Virus record (IMG/VR): IMGVR_UViG_3300017791_000207
Coordinates: 32,001-96,000 of that record
DNA length: 64,000 nt
Strand: one strand, 5' to 3'
From: a virus
Taxonomy: Duplodnaviria > Caudoviricetes
This document shows positions 9,892 through 45,749 of this stretch, one piece after another (position 1 is the stretch's first letter; each line of letters opens with the position of its first letter). The position numbers and the translations under genes were made by a program. The notes beneath the pieces are model-generated. The model ran no database searches. It was given only the letters and a program-made list of their open reading frames with translations, and was not told where the DNA came from.

Positions 9892-10167
9892 TTATATTCT
9901 GTGTTTGTTGCCATCTTTTTGTTTATTTATAAATATATTTAGTTTTTCTACAACTTCGTGATATGCAGAATGTTCTTTAGGTTTGTGACCATAAGTTACT
10001 ATTTTGTATTTCTTACGTAATGGAGAGTGTAAAATTTCATAGGAACATGTTTTCTGATAATTATAAGCATCTCCCATTTCATCCCACCCTTGAATATCCC
10101 ATTCAGCTTTGTCAAACCATACAGGATACCAATCATTAGGTTTAAGTAAATTGCACATATTAATCAA
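9892..10167 (-). CDS. Hypothetical protein
   Basis: 91-aa ORF overlapping the upstream gene end. Confidence 0.55.
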   Translation of the reverse strand: MINMCNLLKPNDWYPVWFDKAEWDIQGWDEMGDAYNYQKTCSYEILHSPLRKKYKIVTYGHKPKEHSAYHEVVEKLNIFINKQKDGNKHRI

Positions 10168-10594
10168 TCATAAAATAATCATTAACAATATCAGGATATT
10201 TCTCTATCACTAAATCAACTATTTCACTACTCTTAAAGCACACGCCCGAAGGATAACCCGCACCGACCTGACCGTAGCAGCCGATGACAACCCACCGAGA
10301 ACCAGACCAGTATTTTTTAAGGATATACTTATATTGAGAACCATTCTTAAAGTCAGCTACCCAATCACCATTGTAATATTTGGCAATATGAAATAGTTGC
10401 ATCTGAGCATTTAACTGTCTTTCCCACTTATCAGTTGTATTTGATGGATATGGAAGTTTAATACTTTCTATGTTTGGTGAATTGAATGTATCTTTACCAT
10501 AAGCCGTTTCAAACATTATTTGCATGGCTCTTGGACTTTCACCATAATATTTGATAGCATCTTCTTTACTGATTTCTAATTTTTTGTTTTCCAT
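10160..10594 (-). CDS. Paralog of the DGR target protein (second/remote target candidate)
   Basis: WVV..(11 aa)..PSGVCFKSS...YPDIVNDY matches the C-terminus of the 25752-26303 product. Confidence 0.8.
   Translation of the reverse strand: MENKKLEISKEDAIKYYGESPRAMQIMFETAYGKDTFNSPNIESIKLPYPSNTTDKWERQLNAQMQLFHIAKYYNGDWVADFKNGSQYKYILKKYWSGSRWVVIGCYGQVGAGYPSGVCFKSSEIVDLVIEKYPDIVNDYFMID
10236..10307 (-). repeat. VR-like region 2 (diverged copy of DGR TR/VR)
   Basis: GC-rich patch; shares cacacgcccgaagga and gacaaccca exactly with VR1; one codon shorter than TR and has several non-adenine mismatches. Confidence 0.65.
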
Positions 10595-11827: not shown

Positions 11828-12457
11828 TTAAGGAGATTGTAATTTATCTACGTAAATTAAATTTGTTTTATTCTTGTCTTTTCCGTTCAACCAACCTCTG
11901 AGGGTTGACCATTTAATATTGTAAGCTTCGGCAGCATCTTTACAACAATCAAAAAATATACCTGTTTGTAAATCCACTACTAGTTTAGCTCTACCATTAT
12001 CTCCTCTTTCTCTCCAACCACAAGGTCTTTTAACACCTTTGAATAATTTACTTATTATATTTCTAGTCTCCTCATTGTGAGTTTTTTCGAAAAATGGATT
12101 TTTACTACCTAATTTAACTTCTGAATATTTTTTTCTACTGTCATCTGATAAAACCGAAGGTAAAATATTAGTAGAAGAATAACAACAATTCAATCCTACA
12201 TTTAATGTATCATAAAATTCCTGCCAATAACGTTCTCTTTCATTAAGGTCTTCAATTGAACATTCTTCGATTATTTCAAAAATATGATTTTTGAATCCAT
12301 ATTCTTGCAACGATTGAAAAATTAATCTTTGATTCTTACAACGGTTATTTCGATAAGAACTCCATCTACTTAATATATTTTTACTTTGTCCTACATATAT
12401 TTCTCCAATGGGATTAATGATCTTATAGATTCCTATTATCTTATTTTTATAAGGCAT
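11828..12457 (-). CDS. GIY-YIG homing endonuclease with NUMOD-type C-terminus
   Basis: IGIYKI...IYVGQS...RW..Y, ERERYWQ, NPFFEKTHNEET; likely start MPYKNK at 12457 (ORF-track extension covers promoter/leader). Confidence 0.88.
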   Translation of the reverse strand: MPYKNKIIGIYKIINPIGEIYVGQSKNILSRWSSYRNNRCKNQRLIFQSLQEYGFKNHIFEIIEECSIEDLNERERYWQEFYDTLNVGLNCCYSSTNILPSVLSDDSRKKYSEVKLGSKNPFFEKTHNEETRNIISKLFKGVKRPCGWRERGDNGRAKLVVDLQTGIFFDCCKDAAEAYNIKWSTLRGWLNGKDKNKTNLIYVDKLQSP

Positions 12458-12580
12458 AAACAAAAAATCCTCCAAATTAGGTTGCTGAATCACCGAAGTA
12501 ATACCTAAAATGGAGGAGAATAAGTTTATAATAGATGACTCAGCGATACAAATGTAAAACAAATTATTTACAATTCCAAA
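12458..12580 (-). promoter_or_regulatory. Sigma-A promoter plus pseudoknot-like 5' leader of the GIY-YIG gene
   Basis: TTTG (12577-12580), 20 nt, TACATTTG (12549-12556); stem 12468-12473/12512-12517; segment 12534-12544 pairs with loop 12484-12494. Confidence 0.7.
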
Positions 12581-12581
12581 T

Positions 12582-14636
12582 TTATTTTGATAATTCTTTT
12601 ATTTCTTCCTTAGTTTGAGGTTTACCATAAGTTTCAACAAGCCATTCTTTTCCATAGGTTTCAAGTTGTTTGTTAGTGGGAACCTTGTCTAAACAGAATT
12701 TACGGAAATTTTCAAATTCCTTATTTCTTTTTTCTTCTTCTCTTTTCGCGCGCGCTTTCTCAGCCAATCTTTCTTCTGTGCCATCTATTTTTTCTATGAT
12801 CTTACGACATTCATCAATGTAATAATCATAATCTATACCATATTCAGTAATCGCTGCTTCATAATAAGTATTAAAAATGGTAACTTTCTTATTAGCTTCG
12901 ATATCAATTTGTTTTTCATCCTTGAACTTACGAAATCTTCTTCCTTCCTTAGAAATAAAGTACCTGTTATTCTTTTGCTGAGGAATACTGTCATTTTCAT
13001 CTTCTCCTACCGTTTCACATTTCCATCCATGACTTGCATTGAAAGTTTTACAGAAATCGTAAATATTTTGATGATTATAAATCGTATCAGCTACAGGAAT
13101 ATCCTTTAAATAGAATTCTGATAGGGCATGAGTGACCACACATTGAGATAAGGACTTATGGTATTCTCCATCTTTAATCATCTCTTCACGAGGCTTAAAA
13201 GCACCTTTATATTTAACTTTACCTTTTACATCTTGACTTAGATAGTTATTAACATCTCTTATCACCATTTTTTGATAAGCAACATACTCCAAACCTAATT
13301 TTGTTGTTTTTTCCCATTCCTGACAAACTTCCCAATACAGGCGTTTATATTCTATAGGGATCATTACTGTAATACCATCTGTGTTTACCTGTAATACTTT
13401 TAAATTGGGTACTTTCGTCATCAACATTTCAGATAACATACAAAGTGCTAATTGTCCCGCAAGAGTAGTTTTCAAGGTATATAAAGGATCATATAAGAAG
13501 CTATACATACTATTACTCTTGCCGTAGGTAGCATTTGCGGAGATCTTCAACCCATCAGCCATGGTCTTATCTCCTCGTTTCTTAGCCTCCATACGAGGTT
13601 TTACAATGTTATCCTCATATACAGTAAGAAATTCCTTACCCAAGTGATAAGGATATAAACCATTGGTAATAGCTAAGTTAGGATACAAGGAACCTACGTC
13701 CGCATCAACAATACATTCTTTATCCGTAGATTTATATATTCCTGGTTTAATACACATGTGAATGCCTCCTGTCCCAAGGTCAAACTCAGCATCTCCAAAC
13801 GAAAAAGAGTATTTAAAAGAATCCTTTAATTCCGTTACTTCAATGCCTTTTAAATATTCAAGAAGTTCATTAAATTCAGGAGTCTCAAAACTTACATAAT
13901 CAGGGATACATTCGCGAAATCTAAAACCCTTACGAAAAGTCCTCATCTTACGAACTTCATCAATAGGTTTAGATGTATGTTCACAATATAATTTGAGTAC
14001 TAATTCTTCACCAATTTTACTATCGGAGAAATTCATACAATTTATACCATATTTGTCTCTTAATCCTCTCCTAAGTTCAAGTTTATCTAAAGTCTTGGTA
14101 TAAAATGTCTTGGTAGCTTCTACATCATTTTTATTGTATGATAGGATTTCTTGCACTTGTTCTTCTGTTTCTATTTCTTGATCGTGAGCATAAGGCATAT
14201 CTTGGACATTCGGAAACTGCATAGCTATTTCTAGCTTTTTAAGTGAACATCTCCTAGCATTATTATCGTAGTGCCAAATCTTATAAAGATCCAACTGAGG
14301 AATAAGAACTTCGACTTCCTTTACCATAGAAAATAACTCGTCAATTACTTTTTGAGCTTTTTTATAGATTTCCTTGGCTAATCGTTTTCCTGTATAAGTA
14401 AGGAATTTATCTCTATTTTTTAGAATATGATGAATTACGGGATAATCGAACTCCAAATTATTATACCCTATTTGTCCTTTAAGAGTGTCTAAATGGTCTA
14501 ATAAAGCAGGTAAATCATTTCTTTTATGCCAAATAACAAACATTTTAGTATCATCGCTGTCTCTGTCTGTACCCGTATAAGTGAAACAATTACAGAGAGT
14601 CTCAATATCATAAACTTCTACTCTATTCTTTACCAT
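12582..14636 (-). CDS. polB: Family B DNA polymerase
   Basis: YDIET, GYNNLEFD, YNKND exonuclease motifs; DADVGSLYPN, KISANATYGK, NTDG polymerase motifs. Confidence 0.95.
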   Translation of the reverse strand: MVKNRVEVYDIETLCNCFTYTGTDRDSDDTKMFVIWHKRNDLPALLDHLDTLKGQIGYNNLEFDYPVIHHILKNRDKFLTYTGKRLAKEIYKKAQKVIDELFSMVKEVEVLIPQLDLYKIWHYDNNARRCSLKKLEIAMQFPNVQDMPYAHDQEIETEEQVQEILSYNKNDVEATKTFYTKTLDKLELRRGLRDKYGINCMNFSDSKIGEELVLKLYCEHTSKPIDEVRKMRTFRKGFRFRECIPDYVSFETPEFNELLEYLKGIEVTELKDSFKYSFSFGDAEFDLGTGGIHMCIKPGIYKSTDKECIVDADVGSLYPNLAITNGLYPYHLGKEFLTVYEDNIVKPRMEAKKRGDKTMADGLKISANATYGKSNSMYSFLYDPLYTLKTTLAGQLALCMLSEMLMTKVPNLKVLQVNTDGITVMIPIEYKRLYWEVCQEWEKTTKLGLEYVAYQKMVIRDVNNYLSQDVKGKVKYKGAFKPREEMIKDGEYHKSLSQCVVTHALSEFYLKDIPVADTIYNHQNIYDFCKTFNASHGWKCETVGEDENDSIPQQKNNRYFISKEGRRFRKFKDEKQIDIEANKKVTIFNTYYEAAITEYGIDYDYYIDECRKIIEKIDGTEERLAEKARAKREEEKRNKEFENFRKFCLDKVPTNKQLETYGKEWLVETYGKPQTKEEIKELSK

Positions 14637-15463
14637 TGGTATATTCCTCCTCTATCAATAAAGGTTTTACGATTAAGGTTTATTTCAGAAAGACATTTGT
14701 TCAAGGTATTCTCTTGAAGTTTACTGGAATAAGTATGTCTTCCTTCACTATTTTCGAATAATCTCCCTTGAGGATCAATCAGTAAATAAGATCCTGTCAT
14801 AGCTTCATTATCTTCTACTACCATAGAAGGATGAGAGTGTTTTTGAACAAATCTTTCAAATCCATTCCAATAAGTTCTAATTTCTTCAAATTGAGTATCA
14901 TTTTGACCTTCTACTCTAAGCGTGTCAAATATTTTCCATCGAGAAGGGTTAGCCCATGAAATGAATTTTTGCATATCTTCATTTTGGTTGTATCTATTTA
15001 CTACAGTATTTATTTTCAGTTTAAATCCCATAGACTTTATTTTATGGATTAACACAAAATAATCAAATTCTTTTTTGGAAGTACGCCCTATTTTAAGGTT
15101 AGTTTCAGGATTCAGAGAGTCAATAGAAATACCAATCCAATCGAGTTTACCTTTGAATTTAGTTAGAAGTTCATCTGTCAATAAAGAACCATTTGTAATA
15201 ATAGAAGTTACCAAGTCTATCTTCTTAGAATAAGAAATAACTTCATAAATCCATCTGTAAAGAAGTGGTTCTCCTCCCGCGAAAGTCACTTTCTCTACTC
15301 CACCTTCTTTAAGCTTATCCAAGATATTGAATACATCCCCTTTAGAGATCTGATTTATAACATGCATATCTTCAAAGGTTGCATAACAGAATTTACATTT
15401 CATGTTACATGGTTTGACTATATGGAATGATACTGTCTCAAATGGTTTATTATCGTTTTTCAT
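14630..15463 (-). CDS. Viperin-family radical SAM enzyme (ddhNTP synthase-like)
   Basis: SFHIVKPCNMKCKFCY (CxxxCxxC), KVTFAGGEP, SIITNGS, WIGISIDS, KINTVV, RWKIF, EDNEAMTGSYLLIDPQGRLF, C-terminal FIDRGGIYQW: the motif series of viperins. Confidence 0.9.
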   Translation of the reverse strand: MKNDNKPFETVSFHIVKPCNMKCKFCYATFEDMHVINQISKGDVFNILDKLKEGGVEKVTFAGGEPLLYRWIYEVISYSKKIDLVTSIITNGSLLTDELLTKFKGKLDWIGISIDSLNPETNLKIGRTSKKEFDYFVLIHKIKSMGFKLKINTVVNRYNQNEDMQKFISWANPSRWKIFDTLRVEGQNDTQFEEIRTYWNGFERFVQKHSHPSMVVEDNEAMTGSYLLIDPQGRLFENSEGRHTYSSKLQENTLNKCLSEINLNRKTFIDRGGIYQW

Positions 15464-15743
15464 ACTTTCTCTTTTTCTTAAAACTATTAGAATAATACTC
15501 CTTCAACTTCTTAATCTTCTCTGCTAAGTTTTCATACCTATTGATAGCTTCTATATGTTTGTCTATTTCTATCCAGTCGATGTATAATATGTTTTCTTGT
15601 TGTACCATTTTATCCATTCTTTTGAGAATCTATCATTTTGAATCTATAAATTCTAAGTAACATTCTAAATTTAGCACGAGTAGTCCAATTTCTTGGAAAT
15701 CTTTTTTCTTTTAATTGTCGAAGGTAAAAGAAATCATTATTTG

Positions 15744-16115
15744 TCATATTTTGATAAGTTTTAATGCTTCCTGTAATCCTAATTCAAGGCACTCTTCATA
15801 ATTACTAAAAGAGTTCATACAAGTATAACGTGTTCTTTCACCTATCTGATTTGGAGTATCATAGTGATAGATATCATAAGAATACTTGCCTGATGATCTT
15901 AGTATCGGTAATACATCTATTTTATGGATTTCTCTTAACCATTTTTGAAGTAGTCCTTGTGTTGGGGCAGAGATTATTTCTTTAGCATATGCATGCCAAT
16001 GAGCTACATAATTATTTAATTTCTTATCTACATAGACTTTTTCATTTGGATCAATAACAAAACCCCTTTGTTTAGTTAAGACTGCTGTCTCATAACTTAT
16101 TAATTGTTCTTCCAT
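15744..16115 (-). CDS. Hypothetical phage protein
   Basis: ISYETA.L.K..GF...APTQ.LLQKWLRE motif common in Bacteroidota phages. Confidence 0.6.
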   Translation of the reverse strand: MEEQLISYETAVLTKQRGFVIDPNEKVYVDKKLNNYVAHWHAYAKEIISAPTQGLLQKWLREIHKIDVLPILRSSGKYSYDIYHYDTPNQIGERTRYTCMNSFSNYEECLELGLQEALKLIKI

Positions 16116-16837
16116 TATCTTCTTTTAAGTAAAGGTACGAAAAATATTAACATCATAATACCTGAAAAAATAAAATCTGTGGAATGTTTGTCTAAAATAT
16201 GTTTAACATTGACAAGAGCAGGAGTATAATCTACAATTGCAGTAAATAAGAGTTTTAAACCTAATAAACCAATTACAATAAATGCTGATTTTTCAAGAGT
16301 TGGAAATTTCTCCATGAGTACAGAAAACCTGCTTGCAATGAATCTCATGATAAAAATACCAATGAACACTCCAATACAAATTATCCAAATATTTTTACTC
16401 ATACCCACTACAGCAACCAAATTATCCAAGGAAAATACAATATCAACAAACTCCACTACAATTACCGTACTCCAAAACACATTGATTCCTGACCTAGAAA
16501 CAAGCTTATCAAACCAATGTGTTTCTCCTTCTTCAATAGAGTCTTTCTGCGGTGTTAATCCTCCATAGGTAAGTTTCAAAAGATATAATCCTCCAAGAAT
16601 CTTAAATATATCTCCTACAACAGGATTATTTAAGAGCCATGCTACTAAAAATAAACATGCTCCTCTGAAAACACAAGCCCCTACAATACCATACTTTAAT
16701 GCTTTATCTCTATCTTTACCTTGTAGATTTTTATTGACTATTACTGCCAAAACGGCAGCGTTGTCAATTGAAAGAGAGGCTTCTAAAAGTACGATTATCA
16801 ATACAGTACATATTAATTGAATTATTTCTGTTATCAT
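16115..16837 (-). CDS. terC: TerC-family integral membrane protein
   Basis: LEASLSIDNAAVLA, ALKYGIVGA..FR, DIVFSLDNLVAVV, FPTLEKSAF, multiple TM helices. Confidence 0.93.
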   Translation of the reverse strand: MITEIIQLICTVLIIVLLEASLSIDNAAVLAVIVNKNLQGKDRDKALKYGIVGACVFRGACLFLVAWLLNNPVVGDIFKILGGLYLLKLTYGGLTPQKDSIEEGETHWFDKLVSRSGINVFWSTVIVVEFVDIVFSLDNLVAVVGMSKNIWIICIGVFIGIFIMRFIASRFSVLMEKFPTLEKSAFIVIGLLGLKLLFTAIVDYTPALVNVKHILDKHSTDFIFSGIMMLIFFVPLLKRR

Positions 16838-16943
16838 TTTGTCAGGTTTTTGATTTTACGTTTATAATAGAATTTAGTTAATTTATGACCTATGAAAAGT
16901 CCTATTGTTAAGGAGAGGATGAAATACATCCACACTAGAGTTG

Positions 16944-17804
16944 TCATTTGATTAAGTTTTTGGTTTGAAGAAGTGTTTTGATGTATTTCAGGTTTTCTTG
17001 GTAGCTTTCATCAAGATGATATGAATTACCAATTGCCTGATGATAAAGTGTGTGAAGGAATTTATAAGATTGGTATGAAACAAAAGTTTTAAATTCCTCT
17101 TTCTTACTGTTGAGAATATACTTTACAGTTCGTGTATTAAGTAGAAATCCACCTATAGACTTCATTACTTGGTTTAGTTGCACCAAGGATTTTACATAGG
17201 CATAATTCAAATAATTCTCAATGTTTGGGTTGATATCAGCATTAACTAATTCTGCATAATAAAGGTAAGAATATTCGCACTCCAACTGGTAAGAATCCAC
17301 CATTTTCTGAATCATCTTTTCATGTGAACCTGTAATTCTAATATCATCTAGGAACAGACAGTATTTACCTTTTACAAAGTCCTTGTCAATATGAAAGGTA
17401 TCTTTCCCAATCAATCTCATGCGATCCTCAGCAGATAAGGCACCATAGTCCTCATGATAAGAAATACTACGTGTAATCTTTGTCTCTTGTACAACAGGTA
17501 AATTATGCTCGGCTAGCCAATGGTTTAAAGCCCTCACAAAATAATCCTTCATGGCAAATGTAGCCGTAGGAATAAACTGATAGGGAGAAGATACTACCAC
17601 TATTTGGGTACCTTTAAACTCACGAGGAGAATACATCTCGTATATTTGACCTATAAACTTTTGAGCAAGTTCTTCACCGAATTGTTGAGCAATCTTTTTA
17701 TGTCCGAATTTAAATTTTGAATAATCAATTGGGCTGAATGGTATTTCTTCAGATTTAATTTGGTGTACTGCAATAGTTGAGGACTTCACTAAATTGTTTG
17801 TCAT
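16944..17804 (-). CDS. Ter-associated phosphoribosyltransferase (PRTase)
   Basis: YSKFKFG, SSPYQFIPTA, PRPP-binding loop LFLDDIRITGSHE; start probably MTNNLV (17804). Confidence 0.8.
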   Translation of the reverse strand: MTNNLVKSSTIAVHQIKSEEIPFSPIDYSKFKFGHKKIAQQFGEELAQKFIGQIYEMYSPREFKGTQIVVVSSPYQFIPTATFAMKDYFVRALNHWLAEHNLPVVQETKITRSISYHEDYGALSAEDRMRLIGKDTFHIDKDFVKGKYCLFLDDIRITGSHEKMIQKMVDSYQLECEYSYLYYAELVNADINPNIENYLNYAYVKSLVQLNQVMKSIGGFLLNTRTVKYILNSKKEEFKTFVSYQSYKFLHTLYHQAIGNSYHLDESYQENLKYIKTLLQTKNLIK

Positions 17805-18366
17805 TTGTATTAATTTGTAGATATGGAATTCCGATTTGTTGACAACCTCCATCAGCAATAGGATTATCTCCTATATGAAGGTGAGCTCTTTCATCAAAGA
17901 ATCGTGGATTAGGTTTAGCCATTCCTGTTACATCAGAATAAGCACAGTAGTCAATAAGTTTGGGAAATAGGGTTTTAATTACCTTATCCAAGGTTCTTCC
18001 TTCAATAACACCTGTATTGGATATAATGCCCACTGATATACCACTTTCTTTTAAGATACTGAGTGTAGGAATAATGGTTTCATCATAGGGTAATGGTATA
18101 TTTTCAAGGAATATAGCCTCTAAATCAGGGTAGATCTTATCATAATCGGGATACTTACCACCTTCTATCGAGAGGTAATGATATCTTTCAATAAGTGTGG
18201 AATGTCTGCCTGTTATTTCATCAAGACGAGTGAAATAATCTTTCATCTTTTTCACTGATAATTCAGTTACTCCAAAATACTTTTTCCAAACTCTTTCATA
18301 CGCCAAACCCCTGAATAAGGGATTCGGACGTATAAGAGTCATCCATAGATCGGTTGTGATGATCAT
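17755..18366 (-). CDS. HAD-family hydrolase (ter-associated)
   Basis: DLWMTL motif I, IISNTG, SD..G.AKP, HIGDN..ADG. Confidence 0.88.
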   Translation of the reverse strand: MIITTDLWMTLIRPNPLFRGLAYERVWKKYFGVTELSVKKMKDYFTRLDEITGRHSTLIERYHYLSIEGGKYPDYDKIYPDLEAIFLENIPLPYDETIIPTLSILKESGISVGIISNTGVIEGRTLDKVIKTLFPKLIDYCAYSDVTGMAKPNPRFFDERAHLHIGDNPIADGGCQQIGIPYLQINTNDKQFSEVLNYCSTPN

Positions 18367-18508
18367 TAGAATAATTTAATTTGATTTCTTTTAGATTGAC
18401 CAAGAGAGTAATAAAAATACCATACTCCTGATACCTTGTTAAAAGCAGGTTTTAAAATTGATCCTGCAAAGAAAGCTAGAATTACTGATAAAAGATAGAA
18501 TAACATAA

Positions 18509-19084
18509 TTAAGAATTTGTATAATGATTTGCAATTTCGTTAATATTACCATTTGATCCTGTGCCTAATGCTTCGAATTTCCACTCATCATTATGCTTGT
18601 ATATTTTACCAAACATCACACCATTAAAGCCTGAATAATCTTCTGATAAATCATACTTGATCAGTTCGGTATTGCTGTCAGCATTTACAGCACGAATAAA
18701 TGCATTTCTTACCATTCCAAATTGTTGATTTCCACGAGAAGAAGCTTCATAGATATTCACTCCAATGGCGACTTCATTACAATCATCAGGTAAGGTACTT
18801 AGATCAATCATAATAACTTCATCATCTCCATCTCCTGCACCAGTTAAGTTATCACCGCCATGTTTGACACCTTGGCCTACCTTGTTATTGAAGTAGATGA
18901 TGGATTGAACACCTCCGTGTAATTTACCATCTTTGATTTCTAAGGCAAAAGCATCTAAATCATAGGCAGGACCATTGCCTTGGTTAACATCCCAACCTAA
19001 ACCGATGTTTAATTTTGTAAGACCTGGGTTTGTTTTCGTCAAGTCTACTTTTTGTCCTTTTACTAAATTAATTGTGTCTGACAT
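18509..19084 (-). CDS. terD: TerD-family stress protein
   Basis: INLVKGQKVDL, GLGWD, YDLDA, GDNLTGAGDGDDE, FGMVRNAFIR, YDLSED, WKFEALG. Confidence 0.95.
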   Translation of the reverse strand: MSDTINLVKGQKVDLTKTNPGLTKLNIGLGWDVNQGNGPAYDLDAFALEIKDGKLHGGVQSIIYFNNKVGQGVKHGGDNLTGAGDGDDEVIMIDLSTLPDDCNEVAIGVNIYEASSRGNQQFGMVRNAFIRAVNADSNTELIKYDLSEDYSGFNGVMFGKIYKHNDEWKFEALGTGSNGNINEIANHYTNS

Positions 19085-24340: not shown

Positions 24341-24519
24341 TATATTCTAAATATTGTTTTGATTAAATTTTTAGTTGCCAAATCAGAAATAGTTTTAACT
24401 ACGCCTGATTGTTGTCTTTCTAAATTTTGAGTATATCTTTTCTTATACTCTTCTCGAACTTGTTCAGATTTTTTTAATGACCATTTTCCATGAACAAGAT
24501 ATTTGTCTATTGTATTCAT
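24340..24519 (-). CDS. 59-aa ORF linking DGR RT and helicase (not in ORF track)
   Basis: MNTIDKYLVHGKWSLKKSEQVREEYKKRYTQNLERQQSGVVKTISDLATKNLIKTIFRI; ATGA overlap with RT stop, TAATG overlap with helicase start. Confidence 0.6.
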   Translation of the reverse strand: MNTIDKYLVHGKWSLKKSEQVREEYKKRYTQNLERQQSGVVKTISDLATKNLIKTIFRI

Positions 24520-25457
24520 TGTATTAAAAGTTTAGCTTCAAGATTCCTCGCGTTGGCATGACCAGTCCAACCAAGATAGGAAGCGATTGATGTTAATTTG
24601 TGCCTGTTTCTTCGGAAATTTTCTTTGATATATTTTCTTACTTTTACTTTATCCTGATCAATTACATAACCAAGGAAGTCCAAAGGTCTTTTATTGATAG
24701 GAAATACTTGTTTATTCGAGAGTTTCAATCTTAATTTTTTATCAAGGTAATCTTCAATCTCATTTTTCAAGTAATATAAATACTCTTTACTCTCATGAAA
24801 TATTACAATGTCATCGCAGTAGATAGCAAGATATTTTATTTTTATGACTTCTTTAAGGTAATGTGAGAATTCGTTAAGATAAACATTTCCAAACCACTGC
24901 GAGGTAAAATTACCAAGTACGCAGCCATGCTCGATAGAATCAATAATCAAATCTAACAACCACAATAAATCAGGATCTTTAAACTTACGTCTCAGAAAGC
25001 CTTTCAAAAGGTCGTGAGATAGTGATGGGTAAAATTTCTGAATATCCATCTTCAAAACATACTTAGTTCCTTTCCTATCTTTAAGATGTTTCTTAATGTC
25101 TTTCAAGCACTTATGGACTCCGCGCGATTTAAGGCAAGAATAGGTCTGAGAAATAAAACTATCTTTTAAAATATCTCCAATGACAAGTATTATCGCCCAT
25201 TGAACAACACGATCTTTAAATGGAAGCTTTGAAATAATTCTTTCTTTAGGCTCATAAATCTTGAATACGAAATACTCCGATAACTTATAGGTTCTTGTTA
25301 ATAATTCTTGCTGTAAGAGTCTCAAATTTTCACTTAAATTACTGTTCCATATCCTAACATCCTTCTTCTTTCTTTTGCCTTTCTGCGCCTTCTGAGAAGC
25401 CTTTATGAGGTTCTCCATACTCACTATCTTATAGAATAAATTTCCTTTTCTTTTCAT
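24516..25457 (-). CDS. DGR reverse transcriptase
   Basis: MKRKGNLF..I...NL..A, EPKERII..LPFKDRVVQ, KMDIQKFYPS, GNFTSQ, YCDD, DFLGY; 313 aa with no maturase or endonuclease domain. Confidence 0.95.
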   Translation of the reverse strand: MKRKGNLFYKIVSMENLIKASQKAQKGKRKKKDVRIWNSNLSENLRLLQQELLTRTYKLSEYFVFKIYEPKERIISKLPFKDRVVQWAIILVIGDILKDSFISQTYSCLKSRGVHKCLKDIKKHLKDRKGTKYVLKMDIQKFYPSLSHDLLKGFLRRKFKDPDLLWLLDLIIDSIEHGCVLGNFTSQWFGNVYLNEFSHYLKEVIKIKYLAIYCDDIVIFHESKEYLYYLKNEIEDYLDKKLRLKLSNKQVFPINKRPLDFLGYVIDQDKVKVRKYIKENFRRNRHKLTSIASYLGWTGHANARNLEAKLLIQ

Positions 25458-25751: not shown

Positions 25752-26303
25752 CTACTCGTTTATCATTGAATAGTCATCATATATTTCAGGGAACATTTCA
25801 TATGCTTTTAAAGCTAATTTTGAAGATTTAAAACACACGCCCGAAGGAAGCAACGCGCCGTTGCTCCAATCGTAGCTGCAGTAGACAACCCAGCCGAGAT
25901 CAGACGAATAATACTTGTATGGAAAATATTTACCCATACTTGTATCTTTCCAAGTAAGCTCAGTTCCTCCATTCATTACTTCCGAAATAATCATCATCTT
26001 TTCAGATGCATTGATACTTTTTTGACGTGGGGTGAGTTTATTACCTTGGTAAGGAAGAACCAATTTATCTAGTCTTTCTTGAATGACAGACTTATCGATA
26101 TCTCCTGGTTCTTTAAGGTATTTCTTCAGAGTTTTAGTTTGTTCTTCGTTGGCAGCTTCAAACATTTCAGATACTTGTGCTTGTGTAAGTTCTGTATCTT
26201 CAAATAGAGAAGTCATTTTCTTGATTTTACTCTTCCAATCTTGACAAGCGATATCAAAAATGGCTTTCATACCTTCGTAAGGTACTTTTTGTGTGTTACT
26301 CAT
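25752..26303 (-). CDS. DGR target protein (about 183 aa, VR in C-terminal domain)
   Basis: Contains VR1; likely start MSNTQK at 26303 because the longer ORF overlaps the upstream gene. Confidence 0.88.
   Translation of the reverse strand: MSNTQKVPYEGMKAIFDIACQDWKSKIKKMTSLFEDTELTQAQVSEMFEAANEEQTKTLKKYLKEPGDIDKSVIQERLDKLVLPYQGNKLTPRQKSINASEKMMIISEVMNGGTELTWKDTSMGKYFPYKYYSSDLGWVVYCSYDWSNGALLPSGVCFKSSKLALKAYEMFPEIYDDYSMINE
25831..25905 (-). repeat. DGR variable repeat (VR1)
   Basis: Encodes SDLGWVVYCSYDWSNGALLPSGVCF near the target C-terminus. Confidence 0.95.
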
Positions 26304-26313
26304 GTGTTTTGTT

Positions 26314-26568
26314 TTACTGTTTATAAATATATAGATAATTGTTGATAACTTTATATACAAATCCTTTATAAAAAACAGACTTAGCATCAATTTCACTTAT
26401 CCTATAAAGAAACTCTAACCAAGCATCTTCTTCCTCTCCAAAATTAGCATCATCATAATCAGATAAACTAGGATGATCTAAAATTTCGGAGGCTCCTTCA
26501 GATAAGGTAAAGGAATTATACACCTCGTCTAAATTTTTAGCTTTTAATATTAACCTGTCTTCTATCAT
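26314..26568 (-). CDS. Hypothetical acidic protein
   Basis: 84-aa ORF directly upstream of the DGR target; no Avd resemblance. Confidence 0.55.
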   Translation of the reverse strand: MIEDRLILKAKNLDEVYNSFTLSEGASEILDHPSLSDYDDANFGEEEDAWLEFLYRISEIDAKSVFYKGFVYKVINNYLYIYKQ

Positions 26569-36462: not shown

Positions 36463-36860
36463 TAGAATTAAGTTGATGTATATCAATAGATTATGTTAAA
36501 AATAACAAAAAAGGTGTACAGTATTTTACCAAATAATATCTATGAATTTTGAACCATGCACATAGGTATTTTATCAACCATTACAAAAACTTACTTTCCA
36601 AAGACTATCTATAGAAAGATCATTTTATTACATGGCTAATCAAATCTTTAAAAATAAGAATGACTTTTTATTTTGGCTGAATTGGCCTGTAATAGGAAAA
36701 TTGGCTTTGATCCTTTTGGCGGGATATACAGGCATGTGGAGTCTTGCCGTGGGCGGGTTGAATAGACCTATACTAACTTATCTTACATATACTAATTTTT
36801 AGAGTTATATTGTTGATAGGGGGATATAAGACTGATGTCCAAAATAAATGTGGGGTATTA

Positions 36861-36892
36861 TTTGTTTATTTCAAATTTTTATTCTACCTTTG
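36861..36892 (+). promoter_or_regulatory. Sigma-A promoter
   Basis: TTTG, 20 nt, TACCTTTG. Confidence 0.75.
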
Positions 36893-36914
36893 TAAGAAAT
36901 TAAAAAATAATAAA

Positions 36915-37856
36915 ATGGCTAGAGATTACAAAAGAAACAAATTTTCAGGTATTTATCTTATACGTAATAATAACAATGGTAAATGTTATGTTGGATCATC
37001 CGTACATATTCTTTATAGAATACAACTTCACCAGAGTAAGCTTCGCAATAATAAAAATAATCATCATCCATACCTACAAAAAGAATATAACGAATTTAAT
37101 GGTGAAAATTTTGAATTTATCATCTTAGAATCTTTTATCGAAGGTATTAGTCTCGAAGAACTAAGAGAAAAAGAGTGGAGTTACATGGAAGGGTACGAAA
37201 CATTTAATCCTGATAAAGGTTATAATCAAACTCATCCTGTGACTCGTGAACATTTTTATAAGTTACCAACTACTAGAACTTGTCGTTATAATCCTATAAT
37301 ATGTATTAGCGTAGATTCTATAATTGAATTTAGTAACTCACAAGAGGCTTCTGAAAAATTAGGGTTGATTAAAAAGAAGATAGAAGATTGCTGCTCTTAT
37401 TGGAATAATTTAGATTCCAGAAAAAGATACCTCAAGAAAAGTCATAAAGGTTATATTTTCGTTAAAAAGTCAATATACAATCCAGAATTTGATTATTTAA
37501 ATTATAAAAAAGATCCTGTAAGAACTGCTCCTCCACGCCCTAAAAAAGAAAGAGTTTATGAAAAAATAGAAAGAACCTATAGATTATCTCCTAATGCTAA
37601 ACCAATAAGATTAGAAAAAGATAGTGAATTTTTATACTTCTCCTCAATTAAGGAATGTGTAAGAGTGATGGGTATGTTAGATTCTAAAATAAGACATGCT
37701 CTTAAACAGGAGTATAAGCAACGCTCACACCATGGTTATTGGTTTAAGTCTATTACAATAGAAGAGTATTTAGAACATAGATGTTTTGATGATATAGTTT
37801 TACCTGAGAAATCAAAACATCTTAGGAATGTGACATCAGATACATTCCTCCCATAA
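36915..37856 (+). CDS. GIY-YIG homing endonuclease with NUMOD/HTH repeats
   Basis: SGIYLI...CYVGSS..I..R...H, E.E, GYN; start MARDYK after the promoter. Confidence 0.85.
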   Translation: MARDYKRNKFSGIYLIRNNNNGKCYVGSSVHILYRIQLHQSKLRNNKNNHHPYLQKEYNEFNGENFEFIILESFIEGISLEELREKEWSYMEGYETFNPDKGYNQTHPVTREHFYKLPTTRTCRYNPIICISVDSIIEFSNSQEASEKLGLIKKKIEDCCSYWNNLDSRKRYLKKSHKGYIFVKKSIYNPEFDYLNYKKDPVRTAPPRPKKERVYEKIERTYRLSPNAKPIRLEKDSEFLYFSSIKECVRVMGMLDSKIRHALKQEYKQRSHHGYWFKSITIEEYLEHRCFDDIVLPEKSKHLRNVTSDTFLP

Positions 37857-42348: not shown

Positions 42349-42639
42349 ATGGCTAAGAATTCCTTTATAGATCAGGATATTGAATGGTGTGAAAAAAGAC
42401 TCCAAGAGTGGCAAAAATTTGTTGAGGATAATCCTGTAAATGAATTAAAAACACAAATAGAAGTAGTAAATGGAAAAGAAATGGTTGTAGCAACTATACA
42501 AGCCCAAGGTAAGTTCATACAAGAAACTATGAAGAACATAATTGCTATGACTGAAGCCTTAGATAAACTTCGTGAAAAAGAAGCTGCTAAAATAGAAGCA
42601 AGAGGTGGAGGAGATATTCCTTTTAGAATGCGTAAATAA
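42349..42639 (+). CDS. Small protein coupled to terL (small terminase candidate)
   Basis: TAATG overlap with terL; helical, basic C-terminal tail; function inferred from position only. Confidence 0.4.
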   Translation: MAKNSFIDQDIEWCEKRLQEWQKFVEDNPVNELKTQIEVVNGKEMVVATIQAQGKFIQETMKNIIAMTEALDKLREKEAAKIEARGGGDIPFRMRK

Positions 42640-45600
42640 TGGAAATAAAGACTACAGAGTTTTTTAAAAATATAAAAAAACTTCCTCCTATAGGTTCAAA
42701 GGAATTTGAAGACCTTGTTAAATGGGAGGAGGAGAAGTGTTTAGGTGGTGTTACTGTTAATGGATATCCTATTTCAGGATTTCTATATTGGTATCTAAAT
42801 CACTGGAATATACGTATTGATTTACCTCCTGATGAGAATGGAAATATTCCAAGGATAAAATCCTTACCTCATCTAAGAGACAATGAAATAGTTGTATGCG
42901 AAGGTCTCGAAACTGGACGCAGAGAGCAAAAAGGTTACCTGCAAATAGGTGGACGCCAGCTGGGGAAGTCCGAAATTGAGGCTGCCTATTGTGGTATGTC
43001 TGCAACTCTATACGAAAATAGTCAGAATATTATCGTAGCAGGTAATGATGCCGATTTAGCCTTGATGAGGGATAAGGTAGATTTTGGACTAAAGAATCTT
43101 TGGGAAGGATTAAAAATTCCTCGTCTTGATAAGACATGGAAAGATAATATGGTTCGCCTTGGTTTTAAACATAAAGATGGTGAAGATGATATTTGGTCTT
43201 ATTTAGTTATTCGTAATGCTAAAGACGGTCATAACACCGAAACTGCCGCAGGTACAACTGCAAAGTCTTTTATTCTTGATGAAGCTTTAGAAGAAAATGA
43301 ATTACTTTACCAAACAACAGGTGAGATAAAAATAAAAGATGTTAAGATAGGAGATAAAATATTTGATGATAAAGGCAATCTTACAAAAGTAATAGATAAA
43401 GTTGATGTTGGAATTGTTGACTTATGGGAATTTACTTTTAAGGACGGTAGAAAAATAACTTCTTCAGGAGATCATATTTGGTCTTTATATAATAACCATC
43501 TTAATAGATATATTGAAATTACAACTAAAGACCTTGTAGATAAAGGTTTTTATTATGATAAATTTGATAGTCGTTATAATAAACATGCTCGCTGTTTTAC
43601 TTATTCTGTAAAGAATGCAAATGCAGTTGATTATCAACCAAAAGATTTAGAAGTAGATCCTTACTATCTTGGCTGTTGGTTGGGTGATGGAACATCTTCA
43701 AAACCAACAGAAGTTTGTTCAATAGATGATTACATAATAGAGTATTGCGAAAAAATAGGAAAACATTTTAATCTAAAACCAAGAATAACTACAGATAAAA
43801 GTAAGAATGAAAAATTCAGAAATATAAATTTAGCTAAACAAGGTGGGTATAAAAATATACTTACTACTCTGTTTGAGGAAATGAATTTGGTTAATAATAA
43901 ACATATTCCATATAAATATTTATATGGTTCCTATGCTGATAGATTAGCCTTATTACAAGGTTTGATGGACACCGATGGGAGTATGTCTGAAACAGGTATG
44001 ATAGAGTTTAGCTCATCTTTTCCTAAATTAGCTGATGACTTTGAAAAATTATGTAGAAGTTTAGGTATTAGTATTAGAAGGTCAATAAAGGAAACTTATT
44101 ATATTTATAAAGGAGAAAGAAAAAGAGGTAAGGATACACATAGATTTAAACTTTATACAGGTATAAGAGTTTTCAGATTACAAAGAAAAATAGAAAGATA
44201 TAATTTATCAAGAAGAAATAACAATAGTAAAAAACAAAAAGCTTATAAAGAACGATGTCCTTTAATTAATATTGAATATAAAGGTAAGGGTCAAGCTTAC
44301 TGTATAAAAGTAGATAACGAAAGTAAACTATTTCTTACAACAGGTTATACTATAACTCATAACTGTGGTAAATTTCCTTTTGCACAGGCATTTGAAGCTG
44401 CTAAACCTGCGTTTAATTCAGCTTATGGATGGAGGGCAGTGCCAATTTTAATGGGTACTGGGGGTGCCTTTGAAAAGGGAGCAGATGCTGAAAGATTCTT
44501 CTATAACCCAGAAGCTAATAATCTTGTTTCCTATCTTGATGAGAAGTCAGGCATTAGTACAGGATTATTCTTATCGGGATTATACAGACAAGACTGTAAA
44601 GATGTAACAAATCTTGCTGACTATCTTACAAGGGTAAAAGGCATGGTTTTAGAAGATACTTCAGAACTCGAAAAAATAGAAATAAGAGTTACCAATGAAG
44701 AAAAGGCTCTTGCCAAGATATTAGAAGAAAGAGAAGAAAAGAAAAAAGATCCTGATCAAACAGAATACCTCAAACAAATCATGTACTATCCTCTCACAGT
44801 TGAGGAATGTTTCATGACTGTGAATGGTAACTTATATAATGCAGAGGCTGCTCGTGCAAGAATCAAAAAGATTAACTCAGAAGGGATTACAGGACAATAT
44901 GTAGAGGTTTACCATGATGGTACTAAATTAACACATAAGCACTCTCATAAATTACCTGTTTCAACATACCCTGCCAAAAAGACTGAGAATAAAGATGCTC
45001 CTGTAATAATGTGGGAAGCTCCTATGGAAAATCCACCATTTGGTCTATATGTCTTTGGTGCAGATCCATATAGAACTGACCAATCAGAATGGTCTGAATC
45101 ATTAGGTTCTATCTACATTTATAAAAGAGTTCACTCAATTGCAGGAGAAGACTTTCAGGATATGTTTGTGGCTTCTTATTGTGCAAGACCTAAAACAGTA
45201 GAAGAATGGTGTCAGAACGCCATGAATTTAATTGAATACTATAACGCCTATGGTTTAGTTGAGAATGATGACATGGGATTTATCAATTGGATTATTCGTA
45301 ATGGAAAAGAACATCATCTCGCAGCTTCTTTTGATTTCTTGAAATCATATAAACTTGAATCAAAAACATCAAGAACATATGGTATTCATCGATCTAATCC
45401 TCGTATAGTAACCATTCTTAGAAATAATTTAAAGACATATTTAAATGAAAAGATTGGTGAATTTGTAGATGATAAAGGTGAAAAAACAGGAGATATACTT
45501 GGTGTGAATAGAATATTTGATACAATGCTCCTTGAAGAAGTATCTAAATTTAATGGTATATTAAATGCGGATAGAGAAGTTGCAGCAAGTTTAGCAGTCA

Positions 45601-45749
45601 CTATTGCAAATTATCTTGACCCTGTTATAGGAGTTGTAGGACAAACTAATCAAGATCCAAGATTCAAGGCCATATATTCAAGGAATAAACTTCCTAAACA
45701 AACATTTTCAAATCTAAGAACTCCAACGTTCTCCAAAAGAAAAAGATAA
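42639..45749 (+). CDS. terL: Terminase large subunit containing an intein
   Basis: GGRQLGKS Walker A, ILDE|CGK Walker B split by intein, GTGG coupling motif, FGADPY nuclease motif, NADR. Confidence 0.93.
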   Translation: MEIKTTEFFKNIKKLPPIGSKEFEDLVKWEEEKCLGGVTVNGYPISGFLYWYLNHWNIRIDLPPDENGNIPRIKSLPHLRDNEIVVCEGLETGRREQKGYLQIGGRQLGKSEIEAAYCGMSATLYENSQNIIVAGNDADLALMRDKVDFGLKNLWEGLKIPRLDKTWKDNMVRLGFKHKDGEDDIWSYLVIRNAKDGHNTETAAGTTAKSFILDEALEENELLYQTTGEIKIKDVKIGDKIFDDKGNLTKVIDKVDVGIVDLWEFTFKDGRKITSSGDHIWSLYNNHLNRYIEITTKDLVDKGFYYDKFDSRYNKHARCFTYSVKNANAVDYQPKDLEVDPYYLGCWLGDGTSSKPTEVCSIDDYIIEYCEKIGKHFNLKPRITTDKSKNEKFRNINLAKQGGYKNILTTLFEEMNLVNNKHIPYKYLYGSYADRLALLQGLMDTDGSMSETGMIEFSSSFPKLADDFEKLCRSLGISIRRSIKETYYIYKGERKRGKDTHRFKLYTGIRVFRLQRKIERYNLSRRNNNSKKQKAYKERCPLINIEYKGKGQAYCIKVDNESKLFLTTGYTITHNCGKFPFAQAFEAAKPAFNSAYGWRAVPILMGTGGAFEKGADAERFFYNPEANNLVSYLDEKSGISTGLFLSGLYRQDCKDVTNLADYLTRVKGMVLEDTSELEKIEIRVTNEEKALAKILEEREEKKKDPDQTEYLKQIMYYPLTVEECFMTVNGNLYNAEAARARIKKINSEGITGQYVEVYHDGTKLTHKHSHKLPVSTYPAKKTENKDAPVIMWEAPMENPPFGLYVFGADPYRTDQSEWSESLGSIYIYKRVHSIAGEDFQDMFVASYCARPKTVEEWCQNAMNLIEYYNAYGLVENDDMGFINWIIRNGKEHHLAASFDFLKSYKLESKTSRTYGIHRSNPRIVTILRNNLKTYLNEKIGEFVDDKGEKTGDILGVNRIFDTMLLEEVSKFNGILNADREVAASLAVTIANYLDPVIGVVGQTNQDPRFKAIYSRNKLPKQTFSNLRTPTFSKRKR
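43284..44363 (+). mobile_element. Class-3 intein with LAGLIDADG homing endonuclease (360 aa)
   Basis: Starts Ala (ALEENELL), block B DHIW, block F AYCIKV, ends ITHN followed by Cys; YYLGCWLGDG and LLQGLMDTDG motifs. Confidence 0.9.

What the first reader, a model, noticed from the sequence alone, without database searches (positions are those of the whole stretch)
12582..15463. Phage-encoded viperin translationally coupled to the phage DNA polymerase
Seen: the 277-aa ORF carries the whole viperin motif series (CNMKCKFC, FAGGEP, ISIDS, KINTVV, RWKIF, E.N..M..SYL.IDP.GR, F..RGG.Y.W), and its TGG-TAA end overlaps the polB ATG (ATGGTAA, 14630-14636). Established: viperins convert NTPs to 3'-deoxy-3',4'-didehydro-NTP chain terminators and act as antiviral enzymes of cells. 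Inference: this phage has co-opted an anti-phage enzyme and expresses it with its replisome, either to poison co-infecting phages that use their own RNA polymerase or to make a different modified nucleotide. Two normally conserved positions look changed (Ser where viperins have the Asn of NxH; Asp in RWKIFD where Gln is usual), which may indicate altered substrate.
Basis: partly seen in the sequence, partly recalled or inferred. Interest (0 to 1): 0.92.

Follow-up and report, generated by a model that had tools for sequence, protein, structure and literature searches.

The report
Phage-borne viperin with Ser-x-His motif
A complete, apparently virulent 115-kb phage carries an intact copy of viperin, the enzyme cells use to make antiviral chain-terminator nucleotides; the gene belongs to a large, strongly conserved branch found almost only in phage DNA, while its overlap with the DNA polymerase gene is peculiar to this one genome.

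Summary
ORF 14630-15463(-) is a full-length viperin: NCBIfam NF038283 scores 282 bits against a cut-off of 180, PADLOC pVip gives 3e-82, and the AlphaFold model has TM 0.90-0.93 to solved viperins. Its stop overlaps the start of a divergent family-B-type phage DNA polymerase in ATGGTAA. The record is a closed 115,287-bp phage genome with terminase, portal and capsid genes and no integrase, so host contamination is unlikely.

The gene belongs to one clade (SH-aLRT 99) of more than 120 metagenomic protein clusters and at least 13 IMG/VR contigs. Among 185,579 species genomes only a phage-like MAG contig and one long-branch Chitinophagaceae gene fall in it.

In this clade Ser-Phe-His is invariant, where 165 of 166 other viperins have Asn. 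All cluster and triphosphate-binding residues are kept, and dN/dS is 0.05-0.07. The Asp-for-Gln change is only a polymorphism (82 D, 50 Q).

The polymerase link is not conserved. No related viperin locus has the polymerase or any shared neighbour, and 15 phages with related polymerases lack viperin.

The best reading is a stand-alone, mobile, active ddh-nucleotide synthase that phages use themselves. Its target is unknown.

This scan has already reported phage-borne viperins on other DNA (e1-3411521, e1-5784631).

The parts
14630..15463 (-). Viperin-family radical SAM enzyme, 277 aa, member of the phage-borne Ser-Phe-His clade
   Evidence: NF038283 281.8 bits (cut-off 180), PADLOC pVip 2.6e-82. 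PDB viperins match at 1e-45. AF2 pLDDT 95.6, TM 0.90-0.93 to 7n7h/6q2p/9dfw. Clade placement.
12582..14636 (-). Divergent family-B-type phage DNA polymerase, 684 aa
   Evidence: phrog_1252 DNA polymerase 4.8e-153. Weak match to Pol II at the motif A region. Atlas neighbours are viral polymerases, some carrying PF00136.
14630..14636 (-). ATGGTAA overlap of the viperin stop and the polymerase start
   Evidence: Read directly from the sequence. Not conserved in any relative.
15450..15617 (-). 55-aa ORF of unknown function whose end overlaps the viperin start by 14 nt
   Evidence: ORF list and sequence. Only a sub-threshold Pfam hit. Coding status not shown.
15744..16115 (-). 123-aa conserved phage protein of unknown function, upstream on the same strand
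   Evidence: No Pfam family. Homologues occur in polymerase-related phages L134 and L136, so it is a backbone gene.
16115..19084 (-). TerC, ComF-like PRTase, HAD hydrolase and TerD cassette upstream on the same strand (context, not a conserved partner)
   Evidence: Pfam TerC 1e-44, PRTase_3 1e-82, HAD 4e-5, TerD 1e-60. TerD is present in only 1 of 5 other viperin phage records, and there about 12 kb from the viperin.
11828..12562 (-). GIY-YIG/NUMOD3 homing endonuclease just downstream of the polymerase (context)
   Evidence: Pfam GIY-YIG 2e-7, NUMOD3 1e-6. A 33% identical copy sits at the same place in L125.

Best explanation
The gene encodes a catalytically competent, stand-alone viperin: a radical SAM nucleoside-triphosphate dehydratase that makes 3'-deoxy-3',4'-didehydro-NTPs. 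It belongs to a lineage that lives in phage genomes, most likely phages of Bacteroidota. It behaves as a single-gene mobile cargo that has landed in the early DNA-metabolism blocks of unrelated phages. In this phage it landed directly in front of the polymerase gene, so it is probably transcribed and translated with the replication genes, but that junction is an accident of insertion and not a functional unit. During infection the enzyme would convert part of the NTP pool into chain terminators. These would harm a polymerase other than the phage's own replication enzymes. The most plausible target is the RNA polymerase of competing phages or satellites in the same cell, and the next is host RNA synthesis.

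Shown: family membership, fold, conservation of catalytic and triphosphate-binding residues, phage residence, purifying selection, and absence of a conserved partner. Inferred: the product, the timing of expression and the target.
For: Family and fold.

Phage identity: terminase, portal, major head protein and tape measure. The record is closed and 100% complete. No integrase or resolvase, with positive controls.

Clade: SH-aLRT 99 for query plus IMG/VR and metagenome relatives. More than 120 clusters at 63-77% identity, many on 50-130 kb contigs. Among 185,579 species genomes the only relative at or above 50% identity is L045, a contig with a CHAP lysin and a collagen-repeat fibre; the next best are at most 45% identical and are Bacteroidota.

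Likely active: the three cluster cysteines, K58, N91, S113, D115, R127, K150, R175, K177, Y226 and R271 are invariant or nearly so in 132 clade members. The beta-8 loop has Asn238 at the position of mouse Cys314, the 'promiscuous pocket' of most prokaryotic viperins. dN/dS is 0.05-0.07 in four pairs.

Long residence: GC is 31.4% against 32.5% for the genome.

Lone gene: no conserved neighbour in 14 loci, and no CMP or dTMP kinase in the genome.

Accessory: absent from phages with a related polymerase.

Module: in L014 and L022 it also lies among helicase, AAA ATPase, PD-(D/E)XK and Toprim genes.
Against: No biochemical or expression data exist for any member. Asn of the NxH motif, kept in 165 of 166 other viperins, is replaced by Ser in the whole clade, together with fixed M228L and A257C. 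The reaction or substrate may therefore differ from the classical one.

I could not establish which RNA polymerase the phage itself uses. The search for a T7-like enzyme had an uninformative control, and a divergent virion RNA polymerase cannot be excluded. The claim that the phage is immune to its own product is therefore an assumption.

A benefit in competition between phages is inferred only by analogy with cellular viperins.
Confidence: 0.6

Rival explanations
1. Altered chemistry. The Ser-for-Asn change, with the M228L and A257C changes, retunes the enzyme towards another substrate (a dNTP, a nucleotide sugar or another nucleotide) or another outcome. The product would serve the phage's own nucleic acid or nucleotide metabolism and would not act as a poison.
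For: Ser12 is invariant in the clade and absent elsewhere, at a site that is Asn in 99% of other viperins. The phage reworks nucleotide pools heavily, with class II RNR, ThyX, MazG and a MazZ-like diphosphohydrolase domain. A preprint reports annotated pVips in IMG/VR phage neighbourhoods that hypermodify DNA (10.1101/2023.12.21.572611). PDB entries of a natural fungal viperin-like enzyme with Phe at the His of this motif, and of its F40H variant, show that the motif varies in nature and is being studied.
Against: All triphosphate-binding and radical SAM residues and the beta-8 loop Asn are unchanged. No partner enzyme is conserved next to the gene that could use an unusual product. A 3'-deoxy product cannot sit inside a DNA or RNA chain. 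No PurZ was found, and no glycosyltransferase or 5mC dioxygenase appeared among the ORFs scanned.
Confidence: 0.15
2. Host takeover or counter-defence. The 3'-deoxy nucleotides are aimed at the host. They would shut down host RNA polymerase or primase, or terminate the synthesis of 3'-5'-linked cyclic oligonucleotide alarm signals (CBASS, type III CRISPR), while the phage replicates with its own Prim-Pol, helicases and polymerase.
For: The gene sits in the replication block of a phage without an integrase, so it can act only during a lytic cycle. The phage brings its own Prim-Pol, exonuclease, DnaB-like helicase, RecA and RNR. Chain terminators lacking a 3'-OH would in principle block any enzyme that extends from a ribonucleotide 3'-OH (inference).
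Against: Nothing here tests it. By my recollection of Bernheim et al. 2021, cellular viperins are tolerated by the bacteria that express them, which argues against strong inhibition of bacterial RNA polymerase. No known anti-defence gene is linked to the viperin.
Confidence: 0.15
3. Functional unit with the polymerase. Viperin and the polymerase are co-translated because the polymerase needs, uses or must be matched in amount to the viperin product.
For: The ATGGTAA overlap, and no terminator-like site between the genes.
Against: The adjacency occurs in none of the 13 or more related viperin loci and in none of 15 related polymerase loci. Overlaps of this size are common in this genome.
Confidence: 0.04
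4. Artefact or dead passenger: host DNA mis-assembled into a phage contig, or a decaying captured gene.
For: None found. Its nearest cellular relatives are host-type (Bacteroidota) viperins.
Against: Closed genome. The gene is flanked on both sides by phage replication genes on the same strand. GC matches the genome. The frame is intact with all motifs. Purifying selection acts across the clade. The same clade appears on many independent viral contigs.
Confidence: 0.02

Closest known systems
Prokaryotic viperins (pVips; NCBIfam NF038283, PADLOC/DefenseFinder pVip; Bernheim et al. 2021, cited from recollection and via 10.1101/2023.09.13.557418)
   Same: Same family by HMM above the curated cut-off, same length and fold, and the same catalytic and triphosphate-binding residues. 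It has the Asn-type 'promiscuous' beta-8 pocket and is a single-gene system. The nearest cellular relatives, at 40-45% identity, are Bacteroidota pVips.
   Different: It is carried by an apparently virulent phage inside its replication module, not in a cellular defence island. It belongs to a separate clade seen almost only in viral DNA. Ser replaces the otherwise near-invariant Asn of NxH, with fixed M228L and A257C. There is no associated kinase.
Eukaryotic viperin / RSAD2 and fungal or cnidarian viperin-like enzymes (PDB 6q2p, 5vsl, 7n7i, 7n7h, 9dfw)
   Same: End-to-end alignment at 28-34% identity, TM 0.90-0.93 and rmsd 1.6-2.0 A. The C-terminal RGGxYxW and the SYLxxD...GR region are shared.
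   Different: No N-terminal membrane helix. The beta-8 loop has Asn and His where mouse viperin has Cys314 and Lys319, so no CTP-selective pocket is expected. SxH replaces NxH.
MoaA (GTP 3',8-cyclase), the sister radical SAM family
   Same: Shared radical SAM core and a nucleoside-triphosphate substrate. MoaA models score 83-88 bits on the N-terminal 200 residues.
   Different: Far below the MoaA cut-offs (88 against 284 bits), TM only 0.58-0.66, and no second C-terminal cluster motif region aligned. It is not a MoaA.
Anti-phage systems carried by prophages and satellites (for example P2/P4 hotspots, PMC9122126)
   Same: A mobile, single-gene 'defence' cargo found at variable places in viral genomes.
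   Different: Those systems protect a lysogen. Here no integrase or resolvase was found, so the gene must act within a lytic infection.
Other viral viperins seen here and scan (canonical NxH clades on IMG/VR and GVMAG contigs L025-L031, L034, L035; NxF phage branch of e1-5784631)
   Same: Intact viperins on viral contigs.
   Different: Separate branches that keep Asn, at 34-38% identity to this protein.

Membership tests
Viperin / ddhNTP synthase family (NF038283, TIGR04278) | Profile score above the curated family cut-off | tested here: met
   NF038283 scores 281.8 bits against a cut-off of 180, covering 10-272 of the protein and 3-280 of 281 profile positions. The eukaryote-specific TIGR04278 scores 152 against 450, as expected for a prokaryotic-type member.
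Viperin / ddhNTP synthase family (NF038283, TIGR04278) | Radical SAM CxxxCxxC cluster motif and SAM-binding GGEP | tested here: met
   C19, C23 and C26, and G63-G64-E65-P66, are invariant in 132 clade members and in the wider alignment.
Viperin / ddhNTP synthase family (NF038283, TIGR04278) | Extended N-terminal signature Asn-hydrophobic-His four residues before the first Cys (the signature is from recollection of Fenwick and Lachowicz; the frequency was measured here) | tested here: not met
   The protein has Ser12-Phe13-His14. Asn is present in 165 of 166 non-clade viperins, and Ser in 125 of 125 clade members. His is kept. Only this one residue of the signature departs, so I still file the protein in the family, as a variant.
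Viperin / ddhNTP synthase family (NF038283, TIGR04278) | Basic residues and Tyr that hold the triphosphate and finish the reaction (mouse K120, K220, R245, K247, Y302, R347; numbering from recollection) | tested here: met
   By alignment, K58, K150, R175, K177, Y226 and R271 are all present and invariant in the clade.
Viperin / ddhNTP synthase family (NF038283, TIGR04278) | Viperin fold: partial TIM barrel closed by the C-terminal extension | tested here: met
   AF2 pLDDT 95.6. TM 0.90-0.93 to 7n7h, 6q2q, 6q2p and 9dfw. Other radical SAM folds give TM of 0.73 or less.
Viperin / ddhNTP synthase family (NF038283, TIGR04278) | Produces 3'-deoxy-3',4'-didehydro-NTP from NTP | not testable with these tools
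   Needs expression and LC-MS.
pVip anti-phage defence system (cellular) | Encoded by a prokaryotic chromosome, typically in a defence island, and protects the cell from phage | tested here: not met
   The gene lies in the replication module of a closed phage genome. Clade members are viral or metagenomic, except one chromosomal long-branch gene, L051.
pVip with viperin-associated kinase | Adjacent or fused nucleotide kinase | tested here: not met
   No cytidylate or thymidylate kinase in the genome, with positive controls. The protein is 277 aa with no extra domain.
MoaA | Score above the MoaA equivalog cut-off | tested here: not met
   87.8 bits against 284, and 82.9 against 325.

The most novel reading that the evidence does not exclude
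Ser-x-His viperins are a phage weapon and not a borrowed shield. The clade-wide Asn-to-Ser change, with M228L and A257C, may adapt the enzyme to a role in lytic infection. One possibility is a different nucleotide product. Another is that its 3'-deoxy terminators are directed at host enzymes that extend ribonucleotide 3'-OH groups, namely the cyclic-oligonucleotide immune signal synthases of CBASS and type III CRISPR, primase, or RNA polymerase. That would make it a counter-defence or takeover enzyme and would invert the known role of the family.
Probability: 0.2. Interest if true: 0.85.

Novelty: new variant of a known kind. Interest (0 to 1): 0.62.

Why it matters
Viperin is the textbook case of an antiviral enzyme shared by bacteria, archaea and animals. 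This work points to a large, well-conserved branch of the family that is maintained by viruses themselves, here by a phage with no sign of lysogeny. It carries a fixed change at a residue that is otherwise almost invariant.

If these enzymes make ddh-nucleotides, then phages use chain terminators against competitors or hosts. That would add nucleotide-analogue warfare to phage-phage and phage-host interactions. If they make something else, the clade is a natural experiment on what the NxH motif controls.

Either way the clade offers more than 100 natural sequences for enzymology and for making nucleotide analogues, and a simple mutational test (S12N and the reverse change). I found no description of phage-borne viperins in the searchable literature beyond a passing remark. 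Subscription journals were not covered.

Tried and rejected
- Conserved partners. tblastn of all 230 genome ORFs against 5 and then 23 viperin loci, and all-against-all clustering of neighbours in 14 loci, found nothing shared except the viperin. I therefore dropped the idea of a ter-viperin or polymerase-viperin unit.
- Cultured phages. tblastn against 50,697 GenBank phage records found only weak radical SAM core matches (at most 34% identity over half the protein, or 23.5% over 82%), and blastn of the locus found nothing. The tool may withhold records near the window.
- Expression. No RNA holder was listed for the locus, and the only DNA holder had a 0.13 share of words.
- Promoters and terminators. 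Sigma-70-type sites were at the shuffled level (39 against 39.6). The Bacteroidota-type TAnnTTTG motif was not enriched (111 against 97 +/- 10), and there is none on the coding strand between the viperin and 17555. No conclusion about the transcription unit was drawn.
- The phage's own RNA polymerase. The PF00940 search found nothing, but its control was blind. The 1778-aa virion protein has no PDB sequence match, and no DxDxD motif occurs in it. This stays unresolved.
- Z-genome idea, raised by the MazZ-like domain. No PurZ was found.
- Structural role of the Asn replaced by Ser.
- Sister relationship with the GVMAG-type viral clade. It appeared in the FastTree run but was not recovered by IQ-TREE, so I make no claim.
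Full report
**Observation.** The window holds two overlapping minus-strand ORFs, one of 277 aa at 14630-15463 and one of 684 aa at 12582-14636. The plus strand reads TTACCAT at 14630-14636. On the coding strand the first ORF therefore ends CAA TGG TAA, and the second starts at the ATG that overlaps it.

**Is the first ORF a viperin?** Yes.
- NCBIfam NF038283 gives 281.8 bits against a cut-off of 180 over the whole length, while MoaA models reach only 83-88 bits against cut-offs above 280.
- PADLOC pVip models give E 1e-78 to 3e-82.
- phmmer against PDB sequences aligns residues 10-277 end to end with fungal, cnidarian and mouse viperins at E 1e-45 to 2e-36.
- An AlphaFold2 model built on a 51-sequence alignment has mean pLDDT 95.6. 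It superposes on solved viperins with TM 0.90-0.93 and rmsd 1.6-2.0 A, whereas MoaA and other radical SAM enzymes reach TM 0.73 at most.

**The second ORF.** It is a phage DNA polymerase (phrog_1252, E 4.8e-153). Its assignment to family B rests on weak evidence: a Pol II match at residues 340-400, PF00136 in a minority of related Atlas clusters, and motifs seen by eye.

**Is it a phage, and is the gene at home there?** The window is bases 32001-96000 of a 115,287-bp IMG/VR record rated 100% complete. The record has an exact 141-bp repeat at its ends.
- Structural genes on the plus strand include a terminase, portal, major head protein, large virion proteins and a tape-measure-like protein.
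- The minus-strand arm holds Prim-Pol, a PolB-type exonuclease, two SF2 helicases, a DnaB-like helicase, the polymerase, RecA, a class II ribonucleotide reductase, ThyX, MazG and PhoH.
- No integrase or resolvase was found, with positive controls, so the phage is probably virulent.
- GC is flat at 29-36% across the window. The viperin gene has 31.4% GC against 32.5% for the genome and 32.7% for the polymerase gene.

A chimeric assembly or a very recent capture from a host is therefore unlikely.

**Relatives.** An exhaustive profile-free search found 357 representatives with E below 1e-30.
- The word-indexed search of 5.8 billion proteins listed more than 120 clusters at 63-77% identity. Many sit on contigs of 50-130 kb, and one variant was seen on 61 contigs.
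- Scans of IMG/VR found at least 13 viral contigs with a 51-69% identical copy.
- A scan of one genome for each of 185,579 prokaryotic species found only one contig at or above 50% identity. This is L045, a 39.7-kb contig binned with a Bacteroidota MAG. Its viperin is 96% identical to that of the viral contig L015, and it carries a CHAP lysin and a collagen-repeat fibre protein.
- All other cellular hits are at most 45% identical, and nearly all are Bacteroidota.
- No GenBank phage record in the INPHARED copy has a true viperin match.

**Trees.** FastTree on 122 rows and IQ-TREE on 70 rows were run. In the IQ-TREE run the query, the close viral contigs and the metagenomic relatives (24 of the 25 rows labelled as this clade) form one clade with SH-aLRT 99, and the 25th, P0013, branches just outside at 92. 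The only cellular member is L051, a long-branch gene in a Chitinophagaceae chromosome. It lies among QueA, MMPL and LptF/G genes and has Gly-Leu-His and a decayed C-terminus.

**What distinguishes the clade.** In 132 members, Ser12-Phe13-His14 is invariant. So are the three cluster cysteines, GGEP, K58, N91, S113, D115, R127, K150, R175, K177, Y226 and R271.
- Against 176 other viperins, three sites are fixed in both groups but differ: Ser12 (Asn in 165 of 166), Leu228 (Met in 95%) and Cys257 (Ala in 91%).
- The beta-8 loop that sets base selectivity in eukaryotic viperins has Asn238 at the position of mouse Cys314. Shomar et al. call this the promiscuous pocket, typical of prokaryotic viperins (10.1101/2023.09.13.557418; alignment).
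- Four pairs with unsaturated synonymous sites give dN/dS of 0.05-0.07.

The clade is therefore an actively maintained enzyme with a specific, unexplained alteration of the family signature. I could not find the structural role of that Asn in the searchable literature.

**Is the link to the polymerase meaningful?** No.
- tblastn of all ORFs of this genome against the viperin loci shows that the viperin is the only gene they share. None has the polymerase next to it.
- Clustering of neighbours across 14 loci finds no recurrent partner.
- Conversely, 15 viral contigs carry a 30-65% identical polymerase, and none has a viperin in the fetched flanks. The nearest, L125, has three small ORFs and an N-terminally extended polymerase instead.
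- Five whole records with a related polymerase lack the family, and three of them are at least 95% complete.
- Overlaps of 1-14 nt are frequent between genes in this genome.

The ATGGTAA junction is thus ordinary operon packing created by an insertion. It probably does make the viperin part of the replication-gene expression unit in this phage. In L014 and L022 the gene also lies among helicase, AAA ATPase, PD-(D/E)XK and Toprim genes, so a preference for the DNA-metabolism module is plausible. The TerD-HAD-PRTase-TerC cassette just upstream is not a conserved companion either. TerD occurs in one of five other viperin phage records, about 12 kb from the viperin, and is absent from the two complete ones. 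No nucleotide kinase is present.

**Mechanism.** The best-supported reading is a stand-alone, active ddh-nucleotide synthase that moves between phages as single-gene cargo and acts during lytic infection. What the product is aimed at is inferred, not shown. The options, with rough odds, are:
- competitor phages or satellites that bring their own RNA polymerase (favoured, by analogy with cellular viperins);
- host RNA synthesis or host immune signal synthases (about 0.15);
- an altered reaction serving phage nucleotide metabolism (about 0.15).

Which RNA polymerase the phage itself relies on is unresolved.

**Novelty.** The family and its chemistry are known, and defence genes on temperate phages are known. 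I found only a passing remark on annotated pVips in IMG/VR phage neighbourhoods (10.1101/2023.12.21.572611), and no paper using phrases such as 'phage-encoded viperin'. Subscription journals are not covered. This scan has already reported phage-borne viperins on other DNA. One is a 56.5-kb phage with a phage-only branch (e1-3411521). The other is a branch with Phe at the motif His (e1-5784631). I rate the finding a new variant of a known kind, of good but not exceptional interest. The phage-specific Ser-x-His clade does.

Noticed in passing
window 16115-19084 (-): A TerC, ComF-like PRTase (PF15610, 1e-82), HAD hydrolase and TerD cassette sits in an apparently virulent phage, on the same strand just upstream of the viperin. 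TerD recurs in one of five other viperin phage records. Its role in a phage is unexplained.
   Followed up: partly
window 24516-25457 (-) and 25752-26396 (-), 10160-10594 (-): A reverse transcriptase (PF00078; phrog_1423, 3e-107) lies next to a 214-aa protein. That protein has a paralogue at 10160-10594, and both match the same stretch of viral contig L013. First-stage notes read this as a diversity-generating retroelement with an early, non-structural target.
   Followed up: no
L011:6111-6920 and L011:7174-8223 (genome 26111-28223): The class II ribonucleotide reductase appears split into two ORFs, one with the N-terminal and insertion domains and one with the end of the barrel. This could be an intron, an intein or a real split. 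The genome also carries several homing endonucleases: GIY-YIG at window 11828-12562, SegE-like at L011:11082-11534, and HNH/GIY-YIG-like at window 36810-37856.
   Followed up: no
L011:8314-9240 (genome 28314-29240): A 308-aa protein has the N-terminal domain of the dATP/dGTP diphosphohydrolase of Z-genome phages (PF18909, 8e-13), and MazG and ThyX are also present. No PurZ-type adenylosuccinate synthetase is in the genome, so a 2-aminoadenine genome is unlikely and the function is open.
   Followed up: partly
window 42639-45749 (+): The large terminase is unusually long at 1036 aa. PHROG terminase matches cover two separate parts, and residues about 180-460 also resemble primase and DnaC-type P-loop proteins. 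It may be a fusion or carry an inserted element.
   Followed up: no
L025, L027, L028, L030, L034; L029, L031, L035; L026: At least three further groups of intact viperins with the canonical Asn-Trp/Phe-His/Phe motif lie on IMG/VR contigs, some labelled as giant-virus MAG bins, at 34-38% identity to this protein. Viral viperins are therefore polyphyletic.
   Followed up: partly
L051:6001-6858 (Chitinophagaceae MAG, 2.08-Mb contig): This is the only chromosomal member of the phage clade. It has a long branch, Gly-Leu-His in place of Ser-Phe-His, and has lost the C-terminal RGGxYxW. It sits between ordinary housekeeping genes (QueA, MMPL, LptF/G). It may be a phage-to-host transfer that is decaying or changing function.
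   Followed up: partly
L125:1099-3456: The closest polymerase relative carries a roughly 100-aa N-terminal extension with a Cys/His-rich motif that is absent from this phage's polymerase. A GIY-YIG endonuclease sits at the same downstream position.
   Followed up: no
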